From positions 402,387 through 466,386 of the forward strand of contig JBBTTO010000002.1 in assembly GCA_038064195.1 (NCBI GenBank): a DNA stretch of 64,000 nucleotides, written 5' to 3'. The notes beneath the pieces are model-generated. The model was not told the origin of the DNA, searched no databases, and worked only from the letters and a program-made list of their open reading frames with translations. Made by a program: the position numbers and the translations under genes. This stretch comes from Patescibacteria group bacterium (GTDB lineage: Bacteria > Patescibacteriota > Microgenomatia > Levybacterales > UBA12049). This document shows, one piece after another, positions 15,796-43,117 of the stretch (position 1 is the stretch's first letter; each line of letters starts with the position of its first letter).

Positions 15796-16242
15796 ATGAA
15801 AAAAGGAATTGATTATATCGGCGTCTCTGCAGGGGCGATGATCATCAATGATCGTGGTGAACTGTTCCTCTCGAAAAGAAGTCAAAGTGTCAAAAATGAA
15901 CGGGGTTGTTGGGAGACACCTGGAGGCAGTGTGGAATTTGGTGAGAAATTAGCAGATGCTGTACAACGGGAGATGAAAGAAGAGTATGGAGTAGAGATTG
16001 AGATCCTCGAACAATTTCCGGCCGAGGATCATCTCATCCCCAACGAAAATCAGCACTGGGTCGCAACGACTTTTTTGGCAAAACTTAAAAAGGGACAAAA
16101 GCCTCGGATTATGGAAGCGGAGAAATGTGATGAGATCGGATGGTTCCCCCTCGATAATTTACCAGCTCCGCTTTCAATTATTACGAAATTAGATGTTAAG
16201 CATCATGAAAATAAAATCCAGAACAAAGTGAATAGTTTGTAA
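15796..16242 (+). CDS. NUDIX hydrolase
   Basis: Nudix box GGSVEFGEKLADAVQREMKEEYGV. Confidence 0.8.
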   Translation: MKKGIDYIGVSAGAMIINDRGELFLSKRSQSVKNERGCWETPGGSVEFGEKLADAVQREMKEEYGVEIEILEQFPAEDHLIPNENQHWVATTFLAKLKKGQKPRIMEAEKCDEIGWFPLDNLPAPLSIITKLDVKHHENKIQNKVNSL

Positions 16243-17584: not shown

Positions 17585-18226
17585 CTATTCAATATCGGTT
17601 GTGCGGGTGGAGTCATCATACGTTAAAGTCTCACCAGTATTAATTGTCAGGACGGTACTCACGTTATCTGTATTGTTGAAGGCAACTTGGGCGGACCCGT
17701 CGGTTATCGCTATTATAATAGTACCGTCATCCATTACGCTAAATTGCAACGTTCCTTCAATTTGGCTAAGAAGTAAATGCAGGCTGCGAATGGAAATAGG
17801 CTCTGAACATTTTTTTTCACTCGTTATTTTGCCGAGAGGAATTTCCAAGACAATATTTGCGGGCAGGGTTTGGATCAAGTTCAGTTCAGTATCGGGGGAG
17901 AGTGTGATTGAACAAGTATCAGCCAAAGTAAGGCTGGCTGTGCCGCTTTGGCCGGTGGTCAGGATTTCACCCTGTTGAAGTATCCGGGGCGCAGTGAGGG
18001 GGGAAGCCGAAGAAGCAGTGCGTGACTCCCAGGTAACCTCGCCTGAAAGACGGGTGATGGTAGCCCGTAAAGAATCAGCCGGAGCCTCACTTAGTGAAAA
18101 GCGGGTGTGAAGAGGTGGGGTGGTGCGGGATGGAGTCAGCTCATATGTCCTGGTCTGATTAACAACGAGCAAAGGGATAGCAATTCCTAAGGCCAACGCA
18201 GGGAGGAAAAAAAGGAGTGCCTTCAT
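17585..18226 (-). CDS. secreted FecR-domain-like protein
   Basis: Signal peptide MKALLFFLPALALGIAIPLLV; LTTGQSGTASLTLADTCSITLSPDTELNL resembles the FecR beta-sandwich signature. Confidence 0.4.
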   Translation of the reverse strand: MKALLFFLPALALGIAIPLLVVNQTRTYELTPSRTTPPLHTRFSLSEAPADSLRATITRLSGEVTWESRTASSASPLTAPRILQQGEILTTGQSGTASLTLADTCSITLSPDTELNLIQTLPANIVLEIPLGKITSEKKCSEPISIRSLHLLLSQIEGTLQFSVMDDGTIIIAITDGSAQVAFNNTDNVSTVLTINTGETLTYDDSTRTTDIE

Positions 18227-18235
18227 AGATACTTA

Positions 18236-18490
18236 TTATACACAGAGAGCCTTTTTTTGCTCGTGGGTAAGTGTTTTTAATCTGGCTTCTTCAGAACAGG
18301 CTTCTGAATGGGTTGAGAATTCTTTTTGATACACAAGTTTTACGGGGCGGCGAACTCTCGTGTATTTGGCCCCGCCTTTGATCTCACCATTGTGCTGTCT
18401 GAGTCTATTGACTAAATTACTTGTTTTGCCTGAGTAAAGCGATCCATCGGCACAGAGAAGAAGATACGTGTAGAAGTGTCTATTTGGCAT
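18236..18490 (-). CDS. GIY-YIG nuclease superfamily small protein (UPF0213-like)
   Basis: FYTYLLLCADGSLYSGKTSNLVNRLRQHN is a canonical GIY-YIG block. Confidence 0.7.
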   Translation of the reverse strand: MPNRHFYTYLLLCADGSLYSGKTSNLVNRLRQHNGEIKGGAKYTRVRRPVKLVYQKEFSTHSEACSEEARLKTLTHEQKKALCV

Positions 18491-18499
18491 TTGTATAAT

Positions 18500-18574
18500 G
18501 TATTATGTAGCCTGTATAGGTATAAATAAAAGGTATTAATCATACATTATACATACTACTTGATACATGCTACA
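18500..18574 (+). repeat. direct repeat DR1 (GTATTATGTAG...TTATACATACTACTTGATACAWGCTACA); second copy at 21804-21869
   Basis: An 11-mer plus a 28-mer (27/28 identical) shared with the rarA upstream region; both copies sit about 45 nt upstream of a gene start. Confidence 0.6.
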
Positions 18575-18618
18575 TTTTACTCGCTTTACTTATTTAGTGG
18601 AAATACTACAATAACAGT

Positions 18619-19608
18619 GTGCAGCGGATAATTCCCCCCAAACTTAAAACAGGTGATACGATTCGAATAATCGCCCCGTCTGATGCCCATACTGCTGATA
18701 ACAAACCAGAGGATATAAAGTTAGCTCAGAAAAATTTGGAGTCATTAGGTTTGAAAGTAACGTATGGCGAACACATTACGGAGATCGATGAATTTAAATC
18801 ATCAAGTATTGAGTCCCGCATTACTGATCTTCATGCAGCCTTTGAGGATCCTGATGTCAAAATGGTTTTGGCAAGTGATGGCGGGTGGATTGCCAACCAA
18901 TTACTTCGCTATATTGACTGGGAATTGATTAGAAAAAATCCTAAAATACTCTGTGGTTACTCAGATATCACAGCACTCAATAATAGTATTTTTGCTAAGA
19001 CAGGAGTTGTAACTTACTCAGGTCCTCTTTTTTGTATATTTCCCATGCAGGAAGGTTCAGAGTATATGATTGACCATGTTAAAAAGTGTTTATTTAGCGA
19101 TGACCCCTACGAAATAAAACCAAGTGACAATTGGAGCAATGATGAATGGTGGAAGCATGTAAAGAAGCGAAAGTTTTATCCCAATGAGGGTTGGCTAGTA
19201 ATCAATGAAGGGGAAGCTGAAGGAATATCACTGGGGGGCAACCAATGTACGCTTAATCTTTTACAGGGCACAGAATATATGCCGGATCTGAAGGATTCAA
19301 TTCTCTTTCTGGAGGATGACTATGAAGTATTACCAAAGACATTTGATCGCGATCTGCAGTCTCTGATCCATCTCCCGAGTTTCACAGGCGTAAAGGGAAT
19401 AATAATCGGCAGATTTGAAAAAGTCTCAAAGATGTCTGATCATCTGATCACTGAAATTATAAAGAGGAAAAAAGAACTTGATCATATCCCGGTCATAGCC
19501 AATGTCGACTTCGGACATACTGATCCCAAGATCACTTTTCCAGTCGGTGGGAGAGTGAGCATGAAGGCGAATAAAAAGGATTCTGTGATAACAGTCCTCG
19601 AACACTAG
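18619..19608 (+). CDS. ldcA: LD-carboxypeptidase (peptidase S66, muramoyltetrapeptide carboxypeptidase)
   Basis: CGYSDITAL with the nucleophile Ser, and the conserved C-terminal His/Glu region (DFGHTDP). Confidence 0.75.
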   Translation: MQRIIPPKLKTGDTIRIIAPSDAHTADNKPEDIKLAQKNLESLGLKVTYGEHITEIDEFKSSSIESRITDLHAAFEDPDVKMVLASDGGWIANQLLRYIDWELIRKNPKILCGYSDITALNNSIFAKTGVVTYSGPLFCIFPMQEGSEYMIDHVKKCLFSDDPYEIKPSDNWSNDEWWKHVKKRKFYPNEGWLVINEGEAEGISLGGNQCTLNLLQGTEYMPDLKDSILFLEDDYEVLPKTFDRDLQSLIHLPSFTGVKGIIIGRFEKVSKMSDHLITEIIKRKKELDHIPVIANVDFGHTDPKITFPVGGRVSMKANKKDSVITVLEH

Positions 19609-19891
19609 ATACCTCTTCAGGGGATTCACCTTTGAATATCCCTCACCTCGGTCCTCTCCCAATAGGGCGAGGAAGATTAAGGTTAAGTCATTGAGATGGG
19701 GGACAAAGCATATAAGTATTTGGAAAAGACAAAGAGTCTTCCAGAGATAAAGAGCGAACTCTTCAGTCTGAAATAGTCAGTGTCTTGGCAAACGCCAACG
19801 TGGCAAGAAACCCCGAAGGGTTGGAAAGGGACCGGTTTGAGCCGGTTACATCGCGGAGCGATGCTTGAATACCCTTTCCGTGAATCTCCGG

Positions 19892-20608
19892 TTAGCTCAT
19901 CTGGTAGAGAACCTCAGGCATATGCCGTGCGAGCCAGATTGTGAATGCGTCGTTGGGCGTCGCTGCTCGGTAGCTTACACCATCATGTACATCTGTGCCG
20001 ATACGCGCCAGCACCAGAAGCGCTGGAATGTATTCGGCTCTGAAGATGAGCTCTGTGGCGTCTAGCTGATCGGAAATCATCTTTGGGTCGACCTCGACGT
20101 CCCAGACCTCAGACCATGTAGCGCAGAAAGTCGGGTTGGGGTTGTGATACCCCAGAAACGTGATGTTCTTGATGCCGCGCGCACCGGCTTCTTGGAGCGC
20201 TTCACGACGCACAGCGTCGTCATCGCTCTCGAAAGCGGCCGCGAGATTTGTACCGAGAATCTTCTCCTTGAAGCCCATAACACAGGGCTGGGCGAAGATG
20301 ATCGGTGGATCGGCCGGTGTGCCATCCGGTTTGTCCGCGAGCGGACGAGCTTGGATGACGACAGCGATGTAGATGATTCCGCCTTTTCGATACCAGCAGA
20401 CAGCGTTGATATTCGGCGCTTCGCCGACCACTACCCGATCGAAATCAGGTGTGCCATCGGCCTTTGTCTGCACGCGCACTTCGGCGAAACCGAAGCGCGA
20501 GAAGAATCTTTTATTGCTGCGGTCTAGGTGCCACGAATTGACTCCTCGATCCTTGAAAAAATTGAAGGTTCGTCTGGATGCTTCTTGGGGGGTAACCCAA
20601 CCAATCAT
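19892..20608 (-). CDS. NUDIX hydrolase (ADP-ribose pyrophosphatase-like), high-GC gene
   Basis: Nudix-box-like AAAFESDDDAVRREALQEAGA. Start placed at the ATG complementary to 20606-20608 (MIGWVTPQEA). The track's longer N-terminal extension would run through a 12-bp inverted repeat and is probably not translated. GC is about 55 % against about 43 % locally. Confidence 0.6.
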   Translation of the reverse strand: MIGWVTPQEASRRTFNFFKDRGVNSWHLDRSNKRFFSRFGFAEVRVQTKADGTPDFDRVVVGEAPNINAVCWYRKGGIIYIAVVIQARPLADKPDGTPADPPIIFAQPCVMGFKEKILGTNLAAAFESDDDAVRREALQEAGARGIKNITFLGYHNPNPTFCATWSEVWDVEVDPKMISDQLDATELIFRAEYIPALLVLARIGTDVHDGVSYRAATPNDAFTIWLARHMPEVLYQMS

Positions 20609-20661
20609 GATCGTTCCTTTCGAAAAACAAATGAGCGAGAAAGGGAACGCCCCTATCTCTT

Positions 20662-20705
20662 TTTGCCCGACAGAAGAATAAATAATTACTCGCCTGTCGG
20701 GCAAA
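20662..20705. promoter_or_regulatory. perfect 12-bp inverted repeat (TTTGCCCGACAG ...20 nt... CTGTCGGGCAAA) in a divergent intergenic region
   Basis: Lies between the NUDIX gene (minus) and the CAP-domain gene (plus); a candidate operator or cruciform. Confidence 0.4.
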
Positions 20706-20918
20706 AGAGTGGGGTTTCTTTTCTTATATGCTTTGTCAACGTGCGTTGAGTCCAAAATAGACTCAACTATGCCAGAACTATAACAGATTACTATAGGTTT
20801 TTCAAGTTCGAACCATTAGATCGAATACGAAAATTGTTCGATCCAGGCACGAAGCAGAACAATAATTTCCTATATATTTGCATTTTTTGCGTATTTTTGC
20901 TACAGTCAAAACTTCGTA

Positions 20919-21800
20919 ATGCTGACCAGCGCACATACTTTACGCTTGGCCGCGTCCTCACTGCTCGGGGCGATGTTAGTCCCTCTCGTGGCTTCGATAT
21001 CCACTGTTTCAGCTTCAGATCCTCTTTTACTCACCTCTCCCGTTACTACCGCAAATTCTGAACAAAATCTCTGTCTGGCAACTCTGCCTGACAGCCTGAT
21101 GGAGCTTAATTATGCTTTGACACCGGCTCGCTTTGAGCGTGTCGACGCAAGTAATGTCAATTCAGTCGTCATTACGCAAGCAAAAGACGGTATGCTCCAC
21201 TCATTCGGTAGTGAGAAAACAGTCCTGAGTAAAGCAACCATTGAGGAGTTAGTAGATGCTAATACCACACCTACGCCGATCCAACCGGTTCAGGAACCAG
21301 TCGTCACGATCATTCCGACCGCTGAAGTCTTAGCTGCTGAGGATCAGGTATCGAGCTCTCAGCTAAGTGCGGATGTCTTATTTAATCTGGTAAATGCGAC
21401 ACGTGCGAACTATGGACTCGCGCCTTTTCAAAAAGACGATCGAATCTGTAATGTGGCTGTCTCACGTGCGCCTGAGCTGGATAGTGAAATTTGGGTTACT
21501 CGTACCATGCACGCGGGCTTTTACGCGCGTAATCTTCCGTACTGGGCAACTGAAAACGTCATCAGTACGCGGACTGAACAGCAGGCACTCAACTGGTGGA
21601 TGCATTCGCCTGTCCATAGATCAGCACTGCTTGGTAACTGGAAATATGCCTGTGTAGCATGTAGTGGCAAGTCATGTAGTATGATTTTTACCAACTTTGA
21701 TATGAAGCAGACAGCTCCAGTAATTCAAGTAGCAACACCCACACCTGCGACTGCAGGAGTAACTCCTCAAGCATCTGTCGGACAGACTCCTGTTTTGTAG
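20919..21800 (+). CDS. secreted CAP/SCP/PR-1 domain protein (YkwD-like)
   Basis: Signal peptide; Ser/Thr/Pro-rich linker; C-terminal CAP block YGLAPFQKDDRICNVAVSRA...HSPVHRSALLGNWKYACVACSG. GC is about 50 %. Confidence 0.65.
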   Translation: MLTSAHTLRLAASSLLGAMLVPLVASISTVSASDPLLLTSPVTTANSEQNLCLATLPDSLMELNYALTPARFERVDASNVNSVVITQAKDGMLHSFGSEKTVLSKATIEELVDANTTPTPIQPVQEPVVTIIPTAEVLAAEDQVSSSQLSADVLFNLVNATRANYGLAPFQKDDRICNVAVSRAPELDSEIWVTRTMHAGFYARNLPYWATENVISTRTEQQALNWWMHSPVHRSALLGNWKYACVACSGKSCSMIFTNFDMKQTAPVIQVATPTPATAGVTPQASVGQTPVL

Positions 21801-21803
21801 TAA

Positions 21804-21869
21804 GTATTATGTAGTAGGTATCACGTATGAAAGGTATCTTCTTATACATACTACTTGATACAAGCTACA
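21804..21869 (+). repeat. direct repeat DR2, copy of 18500-18574
   Basis: gtattatgtag...ggtat...ttatacatactacttgatacaagctaca. Confidence 0.6.
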
Positions 21870-21896
21870 ACTCACTCTCTATGTTAGAATGGGGCT

Positions 21897-23099
21897 ATGA
21901 ATTTAGCTATTAGGATGCGGCCGCAAACACTTAAGGACTTCGTCGGGCAGGAAGAGCTCGTCGGACAAGGGAAATTGATCAGACGAATGATCGAATCGGA
22001 TAGTTTAAGTTCGATAATTCTCTGGGGGCCTCCGGGGAGTGGCAAGACGACACTTGCCAGTATCATTGCTCATGAGACAGATAGTGACTTCCATATGCTC
22101 AGTGCCGTCTCAACCGGCAAAGAAGATCTCCAAAAAATCATCAAAGAAGCTAAAGACCAGACGCTTTTTAAAAAGAAAACCATTTTGTTTTTAGACGAAA
22201 TTCACAGGTGGAATAAAGCCCAGCAGGATGTATTACTTCCTTACGTTGAAACTGGTTTGATCACCCTCATCGGCGCCACAACTGAGAACCCCTCATTTGA
22301 AGTCAACAGTGCGCTCCTCTCAAGAAGTAAAGTTTTTGTACTCAAATCCTTGACTCCTGAAAATCTGCATACAATTATTACTCGTAGTCTTAAAGACACT
22401 GAAAAGGGTTTGGGCACGGCGAAAAAAACTATCAGTAAAGTTGCTGAGGAATTATTGATACGGCTCTCCGGCGGAGATGCGCGGGTAGTCCTCAATGCTA
22501 TTGAGATGGCGGTCACGAATTTTTCAGATAAGAAGATTGATGAGAAAATCGTTCAGGATATTTTTCAAACCAAAACAGCCGGCCTCTATGACAAGAAAGC
22601 TGATGAGCACTACAATATCATCTCGGCATTTATCAAATCCATGCGGGGATCAGATCCCGATGCGGCTTTATATTATTTAATGCGGATGCTTGAGAATGGT
22701 GAAGATCCCAAATTCGTTGCACGCAGAATGGTAATTTTCGCCTCAGAGGACATCGGGCTAGCGGACAGGGGAGCGCTTATCCAGGCCAATGCGGGATTTG
22801 ATGCAGTCCATAAAATAGGTATGCCTGAGTCTCAGCTCATCCTGGCGCACATTTGTTTGTATTTATCTACCACCAAAAAGTCCCGAAGCGTCCCGAATGC
22901 CATGGGGAGGGCAAAAGATGCTGTATATCAGTACCCCAACGAACCAGTACCTCTGCATTTGCGCAATGCTCCGACTAAACTGATGAAAGAGCTTGGCTAT
23001 GCCAAAGACTATCAGTGGAGTGAGGAAAAAGTCGGGCCGAAAGGCGACCTCGGTTTCTTACCCGAAAAGTTAAAGGGGAAGAAGTTTTATGAAGAATAA
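21897..23099 (+). CDS. rarA: replication-associated recombination protein A (AAA+ ATPase RarA/MgsA)
   Basis: Walker A LWGPPGSGKTTLA, Walker B LFLDEIHRWNK, and the MgsA C-terminal domain. Confidence 0.9.
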   Translation: MNLAIRMRPQTLKDFVGQEELVGQGKLIRRMIESDSLSSIILWGPPGSGKTTLASIIAHETDSDFHMLSAVSTGKEDLQKIIKEAKDQTLFKKKTILFLDEIHRWNKAQQDVLLPYVETGLITLIGATTENPSFEVNSALLSRSKVFVLKSLTPENLHTIITRSLKDTEKGLGTAKKTISKVAEELLIRLSGGDARVVLNAIEMAVTNFSDKKIDEKIVQDIFQTKTAGLYDKKADEHYNIISAFIKSMRGSDPDAALYYLMRMLENGEDPKFVARRMVIFASEDIGLADRGALIQANAGFDAVHKIGMPESQLILAHICLYLSTTKKSRSVPNAMGRAKDAVYQYPNEPVPLHLRNAPTKLMKELGYAKDYQWSEEKVGPKGDLGFLPEKLKGKKFYEE

Positions 23100-28875: not shown

Positions 28876-29355
28876 GTGATCTCATGTACTTTTGAAAACG
28901 GCAATAAAGCCTTCCTCCGTCACGTCGTCGTGGATACCCTCGTTCTTAAAGATGACAAAATTCTTCTTGTCAAACGAGCAGAACGACTCCTGGAAGGCGG
29001 AAAGTGGGCACTCGTCGGAGGGTACGTCGATCAAGGTGAAACGCTTCCACAGGCAGTCCAGCGTGAAGTATTTGAAGAGACAGGATATAGAATTCACACT
29101 ATCCAAATGCTGGCAGTTAATGCCGATCCTCACCGTCCTAACGAAGATCGACAAAATATTTCTTTCATCTTTGTGGCTGAAGCCGGAGAAAAAGAAGGAG
29201 AGTCAGATGACGAGGTATCTGAACAAAAATGGTATGGGTTTGATGATCTCCCTCCTGAGGCCACAATAGCCTTTGACCATTATCAAGCCATTGAATTATA
29301 TTTGGAATATAAGAAAAACCCGCAGCCTCTCCCAATCATCGTGTACGAAAGATAA
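28876..29355 (+). CDS. NUDIX hydrolase
   Basis: Nudix box GGYVDQGETLPQAVQREVFEETGY. Confidence 0.75.
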   Translation: MISCTFENGNKAFLRHVVVDTLVLKDDKILLVKRAERLLEGGKWALVGGYVDQGETLPQAVQREVFEETGYRIHTIQMLAVNADPHRPNEDRQNISFIFVAEAGEKEGESDDEVSEQKWYGFDDLPPEATIAFDHYQAIELYLEYKKNPQPLPIIVYER

Positions 29356-41812: not shown

Positions 41813-43117
41813 TTAGACGATGACAGCGCCTAACTGGATGCAGTCCTTGGCGCCATGGACAGCTTTGTCCCGACGCGCAGTGACGATGATATCAGCCAGC
41901 TGACGTTGTACATACTGGACGGTCACGCGCATGTACCAATCCTCGGTTGTCTGCAGAATAGGAGCGCTGTTGCTCCCATCTTCAAACCAGGAAAATGTTT
42001 GAGGTTGGTTAATGATCTCTTCCTGGAGGATCCAGTTCATTTGTGATTTGCAGGCATCAGAGAGATCTGACTCAAACGACGGATCGCTTGAGAAGATCGT
42101 CCCTTTCATCCCGCTGGAGATCGACTCCTTGAGGACGTATTGCTTCATGTCGAGACGCTGGACATTCCGCACCATGTTGTAGCGCGGCATGGTAGCTTCT
42201 CGTGGAAGGTTTTCCCACGTGACAGCTTGCGTTCCGACGAGGTACGTCTCTGGGATGTACTGCCTGACGCGTTGGAGTGAGTGGGCACGGATGAACGACT
42301 GCAGTAACCCCTCAAGGATGGGATCCTTACTGTCGTTTCGAAGTATCGCCAGCACTCCTTTGGCCCCGAGAAAGGGTTTGGGAGGGATGACGAAGACGAC
42401 CTTGCCTTTTTTGTACGAGTCGATGATCGTCTCGTACAATGCAGTCCGGTGGTAGAGGAACGGCAGATCGAGGAACAGTCCTTCCTTCAGAAGTGCTGTT
42501 TCCGCTTCCATCTCTGAAAAGACCTGACAGTGGAGTCCGAGTTTGGCGAACTCTGCCTGCGCGATTTCAAATTCTGGCAGGTAGAACCGTTCCTGGTCCG
42601 CGTAGAAGATCTTGACCGTGTCAAAGCCCAGCTTGCGTACGTAGTCGGTGATCAGTTTGACAGCACCGGGTAGTGCCTTTGCCTCAGGGTAGAGACTTTG
42701 GCGGAACAGCCGGCCGAGGGTTGCGTACCCTAGGCCATGTTTGTTGTGGCCGTCGATCTCAGCGATGCGGAATTCTCCCCACTCATTGACCATCAGGTCG
42801 ACTTTGAGAAGTTGGGGGAGCTGTGTCCGGTTCTGTCCTTGTAGATCGTGGTAGGCTTTGGGGACACCTGATGAAAAAATCTGCCGCAATTCTGTCCATA
42901 CGCCTCGGTAATTGAGCTCACGGTCAAAAGCGATAGTCGCTAGATGCGAGAGTCCTTGCAGGCAATCGGTGATGGCGTATCCCAGCTGAGTGAGTTCTTG
43001 CTGTTGCGCGGTCGTGATCCGATAGACGCTGGGGGACAGATGAAAAGCGTGCGTTGCACGTCTCTGTCCTTCCCAGATACGGGTATCTTCTGTGACTTTG
43101 AGTAGCGTGTCATACAT
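41813..43117 (-). CDS. glutathionylspermidine-synthase-like ATP-grasp amidoligase (YgiC/YjfC family)
   Basis: [32 protein letters not shown] parallels the YgiC region [47 protein letters not shown] parallels [20 protein letters not shown] (ATP-grasp strand-loop). Recalled from memory, not searched. Confidence 0.5.
   Translation of the reverse strand: [434 protein letters not shown]

What the first reader, a model, noticed from the sequence alone, without database searches (positions are those of the whole stretch)
19892..21800. High-GC island A: NUDIX hydrolase (minus) + secreted CAP-domain protein (plus), bracketed by a 70-nt direct repeat
GC rises from about 43 % to about 55 % across 19.9-20.6 kb and to about 50 % across 20.9-21.8 kb, producing the pile of overlapping spurious ORFs on both strands in the track. 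The two genes are divergently arranged around a perfect 12-bp inverted repeat (20662-20705). The block, together with ldcA, is flanked by DR1 (18500-18574) and DR2 (21804-21869), which share GTATTATGTAG and a 27/28-nt block TTATACATACTACTTGATACAWGCTACA. The compositional contrast suggests horizontal acquisition. The repeats could be duplicated promoter modules or the footprint of the insertion.
Basis: partly seen in the sequence, partly recalled or inferred. Interest (0 to 1): 0.55.

Follow-up and report, generated by a model that had tools for sequence, protein, structure and literature searches.

The report
GC-rich Nudix gene with clamped mRNA
Only the Nudix gene is a compositional island: it is a rare, self-contained gene cassette, GC-rich in nearly every genome that carries it, whose messenger RNA appears to be clamped end to end by conserved base-pairing, while the neighbouring CAP gene and the flanking repeats are ordinary local features.

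Summary
The window comes from a Levybacteria-type Patescibacteria genome of 44% GC.

- **CAP-like gene:** it sits directly upstream of rarA in at least nine relatives, and its silent-site GC is host-like. It is a resident gene, not part of an island.
- **ldcA:** it is a typical Microgenomates gene.
- **The two 90-nt repeats:** each copy is an imperfect hairpin. Neither is found in the relatives I fetched, and they do not bracket an acquired block.
- **The Nudix gene (19892-20608, minus strand):** this is the only true anomaly. It has a NudF/NudK-like fold and belongs to a rare family. In 15 of the 17 distinct loci examined the gene has 53-64% GC against flanks of 35-47%, always as a single gene and in at least seven unrelated genomic contexts. 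One copy lies in a 57% GC contig that looks like Chloroflexota.

The gene travels with conserved non-coding parts:
- its own promoter;
- a structured 5' UTR;
- a three-way-junction RNA directly after the stop codon, which matches no Rfam family;
- two 5'-3' UTR helices (A:A' and B:B') that co-vary between lineages.

The coding region also folds more stably than versions with permuted synonymous codons, unlike its neighbours in the window.

My best reading is a horizontally exchanged Nudix cassette whose GC-richness is tied to a highly structured, end-clamped mRNA.

The parts
18490..18585 (.). DR1: copy 1 of a roughly 90-nt imperfect-hairpin repeat. It lies between the GIY-YIG start and the ldcA promoter.
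   Evidence: about 78% identity to DR2. (hairpin, z -2.9 on one strand and -3.1 on the other). Absent from the fetched relatives' loci.
18619..19608 (+). ldcA (LD-carboxypeptidase, peptidase S66). It is a lineage-typical gene, but it occupies the variable slot between GIY-YIG and CAP.
   Evidence: Pfam scores of 120 and 102 bits. Homologues form a smooth gradient in Microgenomates. Not found next to rarA in relatives.
19702..19716 (-). A': the 3' arm (CUUAUAUGCUUUGUC on the mRNA strand) of the long-range helix A:A'. It is the last conserved element of the cassette.
19717..19800 (-). Variable hairpin domain of about 85 nt between B' and A'.
   Evidence: fold of the 3' region, z -4.4.
19805..19822 (-). 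B' (GGGGUUUCUU, 19805-19814), overlapping a UUCG-loop mini-hairpin plus a U-rich tract (19809-19822). It is a weak terminator-like element and the partner of B.
19820..19882 (-). Three-way-junction RNA directly after the Nudix stop codon. It consists of P1, a 7-nt junction strand (UAUUCAA) and two hairpins.
   Evidence: (covariance model R1, 90 bits). No Rfam match.
19892..20608 (-). CDS of a Nudix hydrolase of the NudF/NudK type (238 aa). GC is 55% and GC3 62%.
20612..20649 (-). 5' UTR hairpin that pairs the Shine-Dalgarno region (GAAAGGAA).
20651..20714 (-). Long 5' UTR hairpin of about 27 bp. Its basal CCCC overlaps B.
   Evidence: Shared with L095 only.
20711..20720 (-). B: the 5' UTR segment AAGAAACCCC, complementary to B'.
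20723..20737 (-). A: the 5' UTR segment GACAAAGCAUAUAAG, perfectly complementary to A', which lies 1006 nt away.
20745..20767 (-). Small hairpin near the 5' end of the transcript.
   Evidence: Read directly from the sequence. Equivalent hairpins are seen in L008, L010 and L087.
20777..20805 (-). Nudix promoter: TTGAAA, a 17-nt spacer and TG-extended TATAGT. It is the best sigma-70 match in the region.
   Evidence: Homologous promoters occur in L095, L098, L099 and L086-88.
20919..21800 (+). CAP/YkwD-like gene, probably secreted. It is a resident gene syntenic with rarA.
21794..21880 (.). DR2: copy 2 of the hairpin repeat. It is inserted between the CAP stop codon and the rarA -10 box.
21884..23099 (+). 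rarA with its own TGTTAGAAT extended -10 box 7 nt before the ATG, conserved in relatives.

Best explanation
'Island A' is not one unit.

**The resident background.** The GIY-YIG|rarA interval is a variable slot in Levybacteria-type genomes. CAP-rarA is old and vertically inherited, and ldcA is a lineage-typical gene.

**The foreign element.** The only compositionally foreign part is a self-contained Nudix expression cassette of about 1.1 kb (window 19702-20805, minus strand). It entered this slot before the window genome and the L095 genome diverged.

**Parts of the cassette, in order:**
1. a sigma-70 promoter;
2. a 5' hairpin;
3. segments A and B;
4. structured 5' UTR hairpins, one of which pairs the ribosome-binding site;
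5. a GC-rich CDS for a NudF/NudK-like nucleoside-diphosphate-X pyrophosphatase;
6. a three-way-junction RNA;
7. a mini-hairpin with U-tract that overlaps B';
8. a variable hairpin;
9. A'.

**Inferred mechanism.** In the transcript, A pairs with A' (15 bp) and B pairs with B' (10 bp). This clamps the 5' UTR to the 3' UTR so that the whole ORF sits inside a closed stem.
- B:B' competes with two local structures, the base of the 5' hairpin and the mini-terminator.
- The clamp could therefore gate read-through to A', RNase III cleavage, protection of the RNA ends, or translation.

**Distribution and GC.** The cassette, or at least the gene with its UTR elements, has been exchanged among Patescibacteria lineages and at least one high-GC, Chloroflexota-like genome. 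Its GC-richness is a family trait. It is partly a donor signature that is slowly being lost, and partly maintained because the mRNA is selected to be strongly structured.

**The direct repeats.** DR1 and DR2 are two diverged copies of a small palindromic intergenic repeat and are unrelated to the acquisition.

**Shown:** composition, synteny, fold, complementarity and covariation, and the excess folding.
**Inferred:** that the pairing happens in RNA, its regulatory consequence, the enzyme's substrate, and the direction of transfer.
For: **Lineage and synteny**
- P0001 is 100% identical to the window protein and is labelled a Patescibacteria MAG.
- The rarA relatives are Levybacteria/Microgenomates, and their gene order is given.

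**GC spike**
- The gene has 53-64% GC and GC3 0.55-0.80, against flanks of 35-47%. This holds in 15 of the 17 distinct loci examined, including the window.
- In L098 the gene has GC 0.60 and the flanks 0.57. Its neighbouring CysQ is 70% identical to one from a Thermomicrobiales MAG.

**Movement**
- The contexts differ: dnaJ/K, yebC/ruvC, recR, the ribosomal L11-L1/L10-L12 cluster, argS/M16, and ndk.
- L098 and L099 share 75% aa and 79.5% nt identity although their hosts differ by about 16 GC points.
- L086, L087 and L088 share one locus. Their neighbouring genes are 56-95% identical, but their Nudix proteins only 48-52%.

**Age of the insertion**
- Between the window and L095, Nudix is 76% and CAP 77% identical at the protein level, and four-fold sites differ by 0.53 and 0.49. 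GC3 is 0.62/0.60 for Nudix against 0.46/0.48 for CAP.

**Protein**
- The predicted structure has pLDDT 90.
- Its best Foldseek matches are ADP-ribose pyrophosphatases and YffH, at E about 1e-9 and TM 0.59/0.68.
- The Nudix box E-x7-RE-A-x-EE-x-G is conserved across the family.
- The family is rare: 169 representatives among 1.84 billion.

**RNA elements**
- The 15-nt perfect inverted repeat is unique in the window, with 0.13 expected by chance.
- The same motif occurs only as inward-facing pairs in 1.35 Mb of fetched sequence. A variant pair, AAACACACAGG/CCUGUGUGUUU, sits at the same positions in L086-88.
- Helix A has 15 pairs and 94% of cells paired, and four pairs changed on both sides. Controls with the partner slid by a few columns give 33-72% paired.
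- Cofolding predicts both A:A' and B:B' in all 7 loci tested. The B sequences differ between loci, and G-U pairs fall on the sense strand.
- The three-way junction folds the same way in 10 sequences, with z from -2.3 to -5.5.
- 14 of its 15 junction-proximal pair positions show changes on both sides.
- In five of the ten sequences the sense strand folds 6-13 kcal/mol better than the antisense strand.
- Sequence homology extends 5' of A into the promoter and stops right after A'.

**Excess structure in the CDS**
- Against synonymous-codon permutations, z is -3.4 (window), -4.6, -4.7, -5.6, -3.1 and -2.1 in six of eight homologues.
- Seven control genes in the window give +0.35 to +1.9, and CAP gives -1.6.
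Against: - There are no transcript data, so it is not shown that A' is transcribed. The mini-hairpin with its U-tract could terminate the mRNA before A'.
- The four compensatory changes in helix A separate just two sequence groups, so they may reflect a single evolutionary event.
- The positional alignment of the three-way-junction helices was derived from each sequence's own minimum-free-energy fold, so pairing there is partly by construction.
- About seven of the 17 loci lack a recognisable A:A' pair (L002, L004, L089-L091/L096, L097). Four of these lack the three-way junction too.
- RNAalifold finds no family-wide conserved fold inside the CDS: -16 kcal/mol with a covariation term of -0.44. 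The excess folding is therefore lineage-specific or generic.
- Ongoing loss of GC from a very GC-rich donor could by itself explain GC3 values of 0.55-0.80.
- The taxonomic call for L098 rests on one neighbouring gene.
- In the window and L095 the first E of the Nudix 'EE' pair is Q, so catalytic competence is uncertain.
Confidence: 0.55

Rival explanations
1. A 3.3-kb island (ldcA + Nudix + CAP) integrated between GIY-YIG and rarA, and DR1 and DR2 are the duplicated attachment site or the insertion footprint.
For: - DR1 and DR2 are the only two copies in 64 kb and flank exactly these three genes.
- More distant relatives (L011, L061) have GIY-YIG directly next to rarA.
Against: - CAP-rarA adjacency is conserved in at least nine relatives that lack the repeat. 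L015 and L016 have GIY-YIG|CAP-rarA.
- CAP's GC3 is host-like, and ldcA is lineage-typical.
- There is no integrase, transposase or tRNA nearby.
- The repeats are only about 78% identical, and each is a self-contained hairpin.
Confidence: 0.05
2. This is a plain horizontally acquired gene still losing its donor's composition. The Nudix gene came from a high-GC donor such as Chloroflexota, its GC excess is purely a decaying donor signature, and the UTR complementarities and hairpins are ordinary terminators and leaders with no long-range function.
For: - GC3 ranges from 0.80 to 0.55 among recipients, as decay would predict.
- A copy exists in a 57% GC host.
- There is no conserved fold across the family's CDS.
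Against: - The same 15-nt pair is kept perfectly complementary in cassettes whose proteins are only 57-62% identical, and a co-varied version sits at the same positions in another clade.
- B:B' co-varies in 7 of 7 loci tested.
- The three-way junction is conserved with compensatory changes.
- The CDS folds 2-5.6 sd better than synonymous permutations in six of eight homologues. Seven of eight control genes fold slightly worse than their permutations, and CAP reaches only -1.6.
Confidence: 0.2
3. A and A' act at the DNA level. They would be terminal inverted repeats of a small mobile cassette, or the sites of an invertible segment that flips the gene relative to the fixed upstream promoter (phase variation), or pdif-like recombination sites.
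For: - Identical inward-facing 15-nt repeats flank two unrelated cargos: the Nudix gene, and a small-protein operon in L008 and L010.
- The promoter lies outside A, which is the geometry of a gene-inversion switch.
- Covariation of the arms is also expected for recombination sites.
Against: - There are no target-site duplications.
- Homology extends beyond A on the 5' side.
- The second helix B:B' and its G-U pairs have no role in a DNA-site model.
- Orientation is the same in every pair of loci that shares a context: window/L095, L001/L099, L086-88 and L008/L010.
- No recombinase lies nearby in the window.
Confidence: 0.15
4. The GC spike reflects a second, overlapping gene on the opposite strand, that is, dual coding.
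For: Long antisense ORFs exist, for example 20144-20527 on the plus strand at 127 aa. Some homologues are stop-free across the whole antisense frame.
Against: - The stop-free antisense run varies from 74 to 238 codons among homologues and shifts position.
- Antisense frame-0 stops correspond to the sense codons TTA, CTA and TCA, which are simply rare at high GC3.
Confidence: 0.02

Closest known systems
5'-3' UTR base-pairing in bacterial mRNAs: icaR of Staphylococcus aureus (PMC3868564) and hbs of Bacillus subtilis (PMC5737220)
   Same: A segment of the 3' UTR is complementary to a segment of the 5' UTR of the same mRNA. In icaR the pairing controls translation and creates an RNase III substrate. 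In hbs it controls ribonuclease access.
   Different: - Here there are two helices, 15 and 10 bp, separated by a roughly 90-nt inserted hairpin.
- The pairing does not cover the Shine-Dalgarno sequence directly.
- The elements are conserved, with covariation, across very distant genomes.
- Nothing has been shown experimentally.
ADP-ribose pyrophosphatase NudF (PDB 1g0s, 9b22) and GDP-mannose hydrolase YffH/NudK (PDB 3o61)
   Same: A two-domain fold, with an N-terminal beta domain followed by the Nudix domain. Foldseek gives E about 1e-9 and TM 0.59/0.68. The E-x7-RE-x2-EE-x-G box is present in the family.
   Different: - Identity is only 13-18%.
- NCBIfam TIGR00052 scores 16.8 against a cut-off of 79.6, and Pfam NUDIX falls below its gathering score.
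- G-to-E spacing in the box is longer than canonical.
- The window copy has Q in place of the first E of the EE pair.
- The substrate is unknown.
Horizontally acquired genes recognised by atypical GC (the classical amelioration model; from general knowledge)
   Same: A sharp single-gene GC discontinuity, different contexts in different genomes, and a related copy in a host of matching GC.
   Different: - The GC excess is shared by essentially the whole family. It persists across an orthologous pair whose four-fold sites differ by about 50%.
- It comes with excess mRNA folding relative to synonymous permutations.
Small palindromic intergenic repeats (REP/BIME, Correia, RUP and similar MITE-like elements; from general knowledge), for DR1 and DR2
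   Same: A unit of about 90 nt, each copy an imperfect hairpin. Both are intergenic, the copies have diverged, and they are absent from related genomes.
   Different: Only two copies are visible in 64 kb. There are no terminal repeats or target duplications that I could define, and genome-wide copy number could not be tested.
pdif modules and invertons (gene or promoter segments flanked by inverted recombination sites; from general knowledge)
   Same: The cargo is flanked by inward-facing identical short repeats, and the same repeat flanks different cargos.
   Different: - There is no XerC/D-type palindromic site architecture and no recombinase nearby.
- No alternative orientation was observed.
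- A second co-varying helix points to RNA rather than DNA.

Membership tests
Nudix hydrolase superfamily (PF00293) | Sequence profile match above the curated threshold. | tested here: not met
   The window protein scores 16.9 bits against a 21.1 cut-off. Some homologues carry a precomputed PF00293 hit.
Nudix hydrolase superfamily (PF00293) | Nudix box GX5EX7REUXEEXGU. | tested here: inconclusive
   E128-x7-R136-E137-A-x-E140-E141-A-G143 is conserved in the family. The window and P0002 have Q140, and the upstream G is 7 rather than 5 residues from the E.
Nudix hydrolase superfamily (PF00293) | Alpha/beta/alpha Nudix fold. | tested here: met
   The AF2 model has pLDDT 90.4. 207 PDB matches have E <= 1e-3, and the top 50 listed are all Nudix enzymes.
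NudF/ADPRase-YffH subfamily (TIGR00052) | Subfamily profile above its cut-off, plus a two-domain architecture. | tested here: inconclusive
   The architecture and fold match, with TM 0.59/0.68. TIGR00052 scores 16.8 against 79.55 for P0006 and gives no hit for the window protein. A PDB profile search gives E 0.06.
CAP/SCP/YkwD (PF00188) | Profile match above the threshold. | tested here: inconclusive
   The window protein scores 19.3, below 21.1. The L006 orthologue scores 26.7 and passes, and L009 scores 20.8. TIGR02909 scores 30.6 against a cut-off of 171.
Integrated genomic island with att direct repeats | The repeats bracket exactly the acquired DNA, and relatives have an empty site with one repeat copy. 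| tested here: not met
   CAP, which lies inside the bracket, is syntenic with rarA in at least nine relatives. The repeat is absent from all fetched relatives.
Integrated genomic island with att direct repeats | An integrase or recombinase, or a tRNA target, at the border. | tested here: not met
   The nearest tRNAs are at 10.6 and 46.8 kb. Pfam scans of the ORFs between 10 and 30 kb show no recombinase.
TIR-bounded transposon or MITE (for A/A') | Target-site duplication, and homology that ends at the terminal repeats. | tested here: not met
   There is no TSD in the window, L001, L098, L008 or L010. Homology continues 5' of A into the promoter.
5'-3' UTR interacting mRNA (icaR/hbs type) | Complementary 5' and 3' UTR segments conserved with covariation. 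| tested here: met
5'-3' UTR interacting mRNA (icaR/hbs type) | Both segments are present on one transcript, and the pairing affects expression. | not testable with these tools
   No transcriptome or probing data are available. A promoter upstream of A is predicted.
Any Rfam family (for the three-way junction and the UTRs) | Covariance-model match. | tested here: not met
   At the gathering score only two tRNAs match. In E-value mode over 18200-22000 there is only microRNA noise on the 5' hairpin.
Inverton or invertible gene segment | Both orientations are observed, with an invertase nearby. | tested here: not met
   Orientation is the same in all four groups of loci that share a context. No recombinase is present. 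Read-level heterogeneity could not be tested.

The most novel reading that the evidence does not exclude
The roughly 1.1-kb Nudix transcript is a large, purpose-built structured RNA. Its 5' and 3' ends are clamped by two co-varying helices, it carries a previously undescribed three-way-junction motif, and its coding region is selected at silent sites for stability. The A/A' clamp would be a portable post-transcriptional module, reused on unrelated cargo (the L008/L010 small-protein operon) and carried between phyla. GC-richness in AT-rich Patescibacteria genomes would then be a signature of RNA-level selection rather than of foreign origin.
Probability: 0.3. Interest if true: 0.75.

Novelty: new variant of a known kind. 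Interest (0 to 1): 0.55.

Why it matters
**A caution for island calling.** A GC spike is usually read as recent foreign DNA. Here essentially a whole gene family is GC-rich wherever it sits. The excess comes with conserved UTR structures, end-to-end mRNA complementarity and excess folding of the coding region. If the RNA explanation holds, GC spikes in small AT-rich genomes can mark structured mRNAs, so island-calling by composition would misclassify them.

**Concrete candidates for experiment.**
- A new three-way-junction RNA motif.
- A conserved 5'-3' UTR clamp, of which very few bacterial examples are known (icaR, hbs).

**Gene flow.** A cassette shared between ultra-small Patescibacteria and a Chloroflexota-like genome in the same sample series hints at gene exchange between putative episymbionts and other community members.

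**For annotation.**
- CAP, ldcA and rarA should be treated as resident genes.
- The two repeats should be treated as a small palindromic repeat family.

Tried and rejected
- **Rfam:** gathering-score and E-value scans found nothing for the UTR elements.
- **Defence and phage libraries:** PADLOC and PHROGs gave no hit for the Nudix protein, its occasional partner proteins or CAP. A scan of viral contigs found no relative.
- **Metagenome scan:** The smaller alignment yielded only 5 loci.
- **MAFFT alignment of all three-way-junction sequences:** it was structurally incoherent.
- **Covariance model R1:** built from three sequences, it found L095 and L097 but not the L086 group, even with filters off. 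Cross-group covariation therefore had to be counted from individual folds.
- **RNAduplex over 300-nt flanks:** it gave uninformative, over-extended duplexes (after a timeout). I replaced it with cofolding of trimmed UTRs.
- **RNAalifold on the CDS:** it found no family-wide fold.
- **Partner proteins:** the roughly 250-aa protein (L001, L087, L098) and the roughly 175-aa protein (L086-88) matched nothing in Pfam, NCBIfam or PDB.
- **A as a promoter:** rejected. TATAAG lacks a -35 box at the right spacing, and a canonical promoter lies 55-75 nt upstream.
- **Antisense overlapping gene:** rejected.
- **tRNA fragment:** a D-arm-like string at the Nudix 3' end was considered as a tRNA remnant. ARAGORN and Rfam call nothing there.


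Full report
**1. Checking the observation**

The window averages 44.3% GC.
- In 300-nt windows GC reaches 0.54-0.58 across 19850-20599 and 0.48-0.49 across 20900-21799.
- By codon position the two genes differ. The Nudix CDS has GC3 0.62. Only one of the 38 ORFs of at least 200 aa is higher, and the median is 0.45.
- The CAP CDS has GC3 0.435, and its excess lies in codon positions 1 and 2.
- The 28-nt block (27/28) and GTATTATGTAG occur only at the two stated places. The repeat really spans 18490-18585 and 21794-21880, at about 78% identity.
- The 12-bp perfect inverted repeat is the core of arms 20661-20681 and 20686-20706.
- The overlapping ORFs on both strands are present.

The only nuance is that the Nudix gene alone is anomalous at silent sites.

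**2. What the genes are**

- Pfam gives strong hits for GIY-YIG (18236-18490, minus), LdcA (18619-19608, plus), RarA/MgsA (21897-23099, plus), GH18 and a histidine phosphatase. The NUDIX hit (16.9 bits) and the CAP hit (19.3 bits) are both below the 21.1 threshold.
- The Nudix-like protein starts at the ATG at 20608. It is 238 aa and identical to P0001, from a Patescibacteria MAG contig of 1.08 Mb.
- An AlphaFold model built on a 33-sequence alignment has pLDDT 90.4. Its best PDB matches are ADP-ribose pyrophosphatases (9b22, 1g0s) and the GDP-mannose hydrolase YffH, at E about 1e-9 and TM 0.59/0.68.
- The family keeps E-x7-RE-A-x-EE-A-G. The window and its closest relative have Q in place of the first E of the EE pair.
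- The CAP assignment is supported because the L006 orthologue passes Pfam's cut-off at 26.7 bits, and by a weak YkwD match.

**3. Synteny: CAP and ldcA are resident genes**

RarA was used to fetch 80 related loci. They are Levybacteria and other Microgenomates, although many records carry other labels.
- A CAP homologue of 46-62% identity lies upstream of rarA in L006-L010, L015, L016, L020 and L041.
- L015 and L016 show GIY-YIG(-)|CAP(+)-rarA(+)-hisphos(-) with about 155 bp between GIY-YIG and CAP. L011 and L061 have GIY-YIG directly next to rarA. L006 and L009 carry mutS/mutL and other genes upstream of CAP.
- The interval between GIY-YIG and rarA is therefore a variable slot. CAP-rarA is old, and ldcA plus Nudix are what this lineage added between GIY-YIG and CAP.
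- LdcA has thousands of Microgenomates homologues with a smooth identity gradient (88, 78, 77, 73, 68% and so on), so it is lineage-typical.
- No integrase, transposase or tRNA lies within about 9 kb.

**4. The direct repeats**

- Each copy folds into an imperfect hairpin of about 75 nt (z -2.2 to -3.1, depending on copy and strand).
- Neither copy has a counterpart in the CAP-rarA or GIY-YIG-proximal spacers of relatives. There, only the rarA extended -10 box (TGTTAGAAT, 7 nt before the ATG) is conserved.
- ldcA has its own TACAAT box 6-7 nt before its GTG start.
- The repeats are therefore not the core promoters, and they do not delimit acquired DNA.
- The most economical reading is two diverged copies of a small palindromic intergenic repeat. 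Copy number in the rest of the genome could not be tested.

**5. The Nudix gene is GC-rich nearly everywhere it occurs**

- A word-indexed search found 51 homologues, and all the named ones are Patescibacteria: WWE3, Levybacteria and unclassified.
- An exhaustive profile search found only 169 cluster representatives among 1.84 billion. More distant named members are Nealsonbacteria.
- No relative was found in viral contigs, PHROGs or PADLOC.
- I fetched the DNA around 16 distinct homologues (duplicate contigs excluded).
- The gene sits in unrelated contexts:
  - beside dnaJ-dnaK-grpE-hrcA (L001, L099);
  - beside yebC-ruvC (L002);
  - beside recR (L004);
  - inside the ribosomal L11-L1/L10-L12 cluster among toxin-antitoxin genes (L086-L088);
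  - beside argS/M16 (L096);
  - beside ndk (L097).
- In 15 of the 17 loci, counting the window, the gene is a sharply bounded single-gene spike. GC is 0.53-0.64 and GC3 0.55-0.80, against flanks of 0.35-0.47. GC1 (about 0.61) and GC2 (about 0.44) are nearly constant in the CPR loci where they were computed.
- The two exceptions are L089 and L098. L089 is a distant homologue (34% identity) in a 49% GC host. In L098 the flanks are 57% GC, and the neighbouring CysQ is 70% identical to one from a Thermomicrobiales MAG.
- L098 and L099 come from the same sample series. They share 75% aa and 79.5% nt identity over the CDS and 3' element, although their hosts differ by about 16 GC points. In a neighbour-joining tree they group with L001.
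- L086, L087 and L088 share one locus. Their neighbours are 56-95% identical (L7/L12 is 95% between L086 and L088), but their Nudix proteins are only 48-52% identical. That points to either fast evolution or allele replacement.

**6. The insertion in this lineage is not recent**

L095 (P0002) has the same divergent Nudix|CAP arrangement, including the intergenic sequence. Between the window and L095:
- Nudix is 76% and CAP 77% identical at the protein level;
- four-fold degenerate sites differ at 0.53 and 0.49;
- GC3 is 0.62/0.60 for Nudix and 0.46/0.48 for CAP.

The GC contrast has therefore survived substantial synonymous divergence. That is compatible with slow loss of GC from a very GC-rich ancestor, but it also fits active maintenance.

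**7. Conserved non-coding architecture**

A perfect 15-nt inverted repeat (GACAAAGCATATAAG) brackets the gene, at 19702-19716 and 20723-20737. It is unique in the window, with 0.13 matches expected by chance at up to two mismatches.

*Helix A:A'*
- In 1.35 Mb of window plus fetched loci, the motif (at most one mismatch) occurs only as inward-facing pairs. The pairs lie around the Nudix homologue in L001, and around a different small operon downstream of rarA in L008 and L010. Pairs were later found in L098 and L099 too.
- L086-L088 carry a variant pair (AAACACACAGG/CCUGUGUGUUU) at the same relative positions.
- On an alignment of seven loci, helix A has 15 pairs and 94% of cells paired, against 33-72% when the partner is slid. 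Four pairs changed on both sides.

*Helix B:B'*
- Cofolding the trimmed 5' and 3' UTRs predicts A:A' (11-16 bp) in all seven loci. It also predicts a second helix, B:B' (7-12 bp), in all seven.
- B lies 2-3 nt 3' of A, and B' lies at +77 to +100 after the stop codon.
- The B sequences differ between loci, and G-U pairs fall on the sense strand.

*Boundaries of the conserved unit*
- Sequence homology among cassettes extends upstream of A into a canonical promoter. In the window this is TTGAAA, a 17-nt spacer and TG-extended TATAGT at 20805-20777, the best match in the region. Homology ends immediately after A'.
- There are no target-site duplications.
- A is therefore transcribed, and A' marks the 3' edge of the conserved unit.

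*The three-way junction*
- Directly after the stop codon lies a three-way junction (window 19820-19882, minus strand). It has an 8-bp P1, a 7-nt junction strand of consensus U-R-U-U-S-A-N, and two hairpins.
- Ten sequences fold the same way, with z from -2.3 to -5.5.
- 14 of the 15 junction-proximal pair positions show changes on both sides.
- In five of the ten sequences the sense strand folds 6-13 kcal/mol better than the antisense strand, because of G-U pairs.
- A covariance model built from three sequences hits only the Nudix 3' ends in 258 kb.
- Rfam has no match.

*The window's UTRs*
- The 3' region folds with z -4.4.
- The CCCC of B can pair either locally, at the base of the 5' hairpin, or with B'. 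B' in turn overlaps the 3' strand and U-tract of a UUCG mini-hairpin. The two long-range helices therefore compete with local structures.

**8. Excess structure in the coding region**

- I permuted synonymous codons within each amino-acid class, which preserves the protein, the codon usage and GC3. Against these permutations the native Nudix CDS folds better by z = -3.4 (window), -4.6 (L095), -4.7 (L001), -5.6 (L090), -3.1 (L087), -2.1 (L002), -1.2 (L098) and -0.7 (L004).
- Seven control genes of similar length in the window give +0.35 to +1.9, and CAP gives -1.6.
- RNAalifold on 14 CDSs finds no strong family-wide fold: -16 kcal/mol with a covariation term of -0.44.
- The signal is therefore lineage-specific or a generic structuredness. 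It rests on 24-30 permutations per gene and on minimum free energies only.

**9. Explanation**

The best-supported picture is a self-contained Nudix cassette made of promoter, structured 5' UTR, GC-rich CDS, three-way junction and a 5'-3' clamp.
- It has been exchanged among Patescibacteria lineages and at least one high-GC genome.
- It entered the GIY-YIG|CAP slot before the window and L095 lineages split.

The mechanistic steps below are inferences:
- The clamp encloses the ORF in a closed stem.
- The clamp could gate read-through past the mini-terminator, create an RNase III site, protect both RNA ends, or modulate translation. This is by analogy with icaR and hbs (PMC3868564, PMC5737220).
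- GC-richness then has two non-exclusive sources: donor composition and selection for stable RNA.

The enzyme is probably a nucleoside-diphosphate-X pyrophosphatase of the ADP-ribose/NDP-sugar type. The substrate is unknown, and the window copy's E-to-Q change leaves its activity uncertain.

**10. Rivals**

- Pure loss of donor GC without any RNA function does not account for the co-varying helices or the permutation result.
- DNA-level roles for A and A' (terminal repeats, an inverton, pdif-like sites) remain possible. They lack target duplications, a recombinase, alternative orientations, and any role for B:B'.
- An antisense gene is rejected.

**11. Novelty and limits**

A horizontally acquired Nudix gene is ordinary. 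What is unusual:
- a family-wide, persistent single-gene GC spike;
- an undescribed three-way-junction motif;
- a conserved two-helix 5'-3' UTR clamp reused on another cargo;
- excess CDS folding.

I rate this a new variant of known kinds.

The limits are these:
- there are no transcript data;
- only 17 loci were examined, and about seven of them lack the clamp;
- the covariation in helix A may be a single evolutionary event;
- the taxonomic call for L098 rests on one gene;
- the rest of this genome could not be searched.

Noticed in passing
L008:3449-4304 and L010:11303-11920: In two close relatives, a small minus-strand operon sits between rarA and the histidine phosphatase gene. It encodes a 95-99-aa protein and a 109-136-aa membrane protein, and in L008 also an ACP-like 88-98-aa protein. 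The operon is flanked by the same inward-facing RACAAAGCATATAAG pair as the Nudix cassette. The proximal copy lies just upstream of the RBS, and the distal copy just beyond a terminator hairpin. The window has no such insert.
   Followed up: partly
window 41813-43117 (minus strand): A second GC-rich ORF of 434 aa, with GC 0.53 and GC3 0.64 (the highest in the window) and no Pfam hit. The local GC plateau of 0.50-0.56 spans about 41.7-43.0 kb. It has no A-type motif.
   Followed up: partly
window 21880-21899 and the equivalent positions in L006-L016: rarA is preceded by a conserved extended -10 box (TGnTAGAAT) only 6-7 nt before the ATG in most close relatives, which suggests a leaderless mRNA. 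ldcA has a similar layout, TACAAT followed by 7 nt and then GTG.
   Followed up: partly
window 15796-16242 (+) and 28876-29355 (+): Two canonical small Nudix genes (Pfam NUDIX 71 and 82 bits) lie within 9 kb on either side of the atypical one.
   Followed up: no
window 33193-33207/34451-34465; 37671-37686/38637-38652; 14926-14947/16505-16526: Other long-range inverted repeats: 15 nt perfect, 16 nt at 94%, and 22 nt at 86%. At least the first two have one arm that appears to lie inside a coding region. I could not tell whether they are chance matches or further 5'-3' pairings.
   Followed up: no
L001:4814-5497(-), L087:6955-7716(+), L098:3914-4732(-): An uncharacterised protein of about 230-270 aa (45-50% identical between loci, with no Pfam, NCBIfam or PDB match) recurs next to the Nudix gene in three otherwise unrelated contexts. 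A protein of about 175 aa recurs upstream of the gene in L086-L088. Both have host-like GC.
   Followed up: partly
L086-L088, ribosomal protein L11-L1 / L10-L12 cluster: The interval between rplA and rplJ in these Patescibacteria is a hotspot. It holds toxin-antitoxin genes (HicA, PemK, AbiEii), 23S-rRNA-IVP/bAvd-like proteins and the Nudix cassette.
   Followed up: no
Genome contigs record titles for L007-L009, L012 and others: Many contigs that clearly belong to Levybacteria-type genomes (RarA 79-87% identical, same synteny) are labelled 'uncultured Gammaproteobacteria bacterium' in their public records. Others are labelled Eisenbacteria, Ktedonobacteraceae and so on. These look like mislabelled MAG taxonomy.
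   Followed up: no
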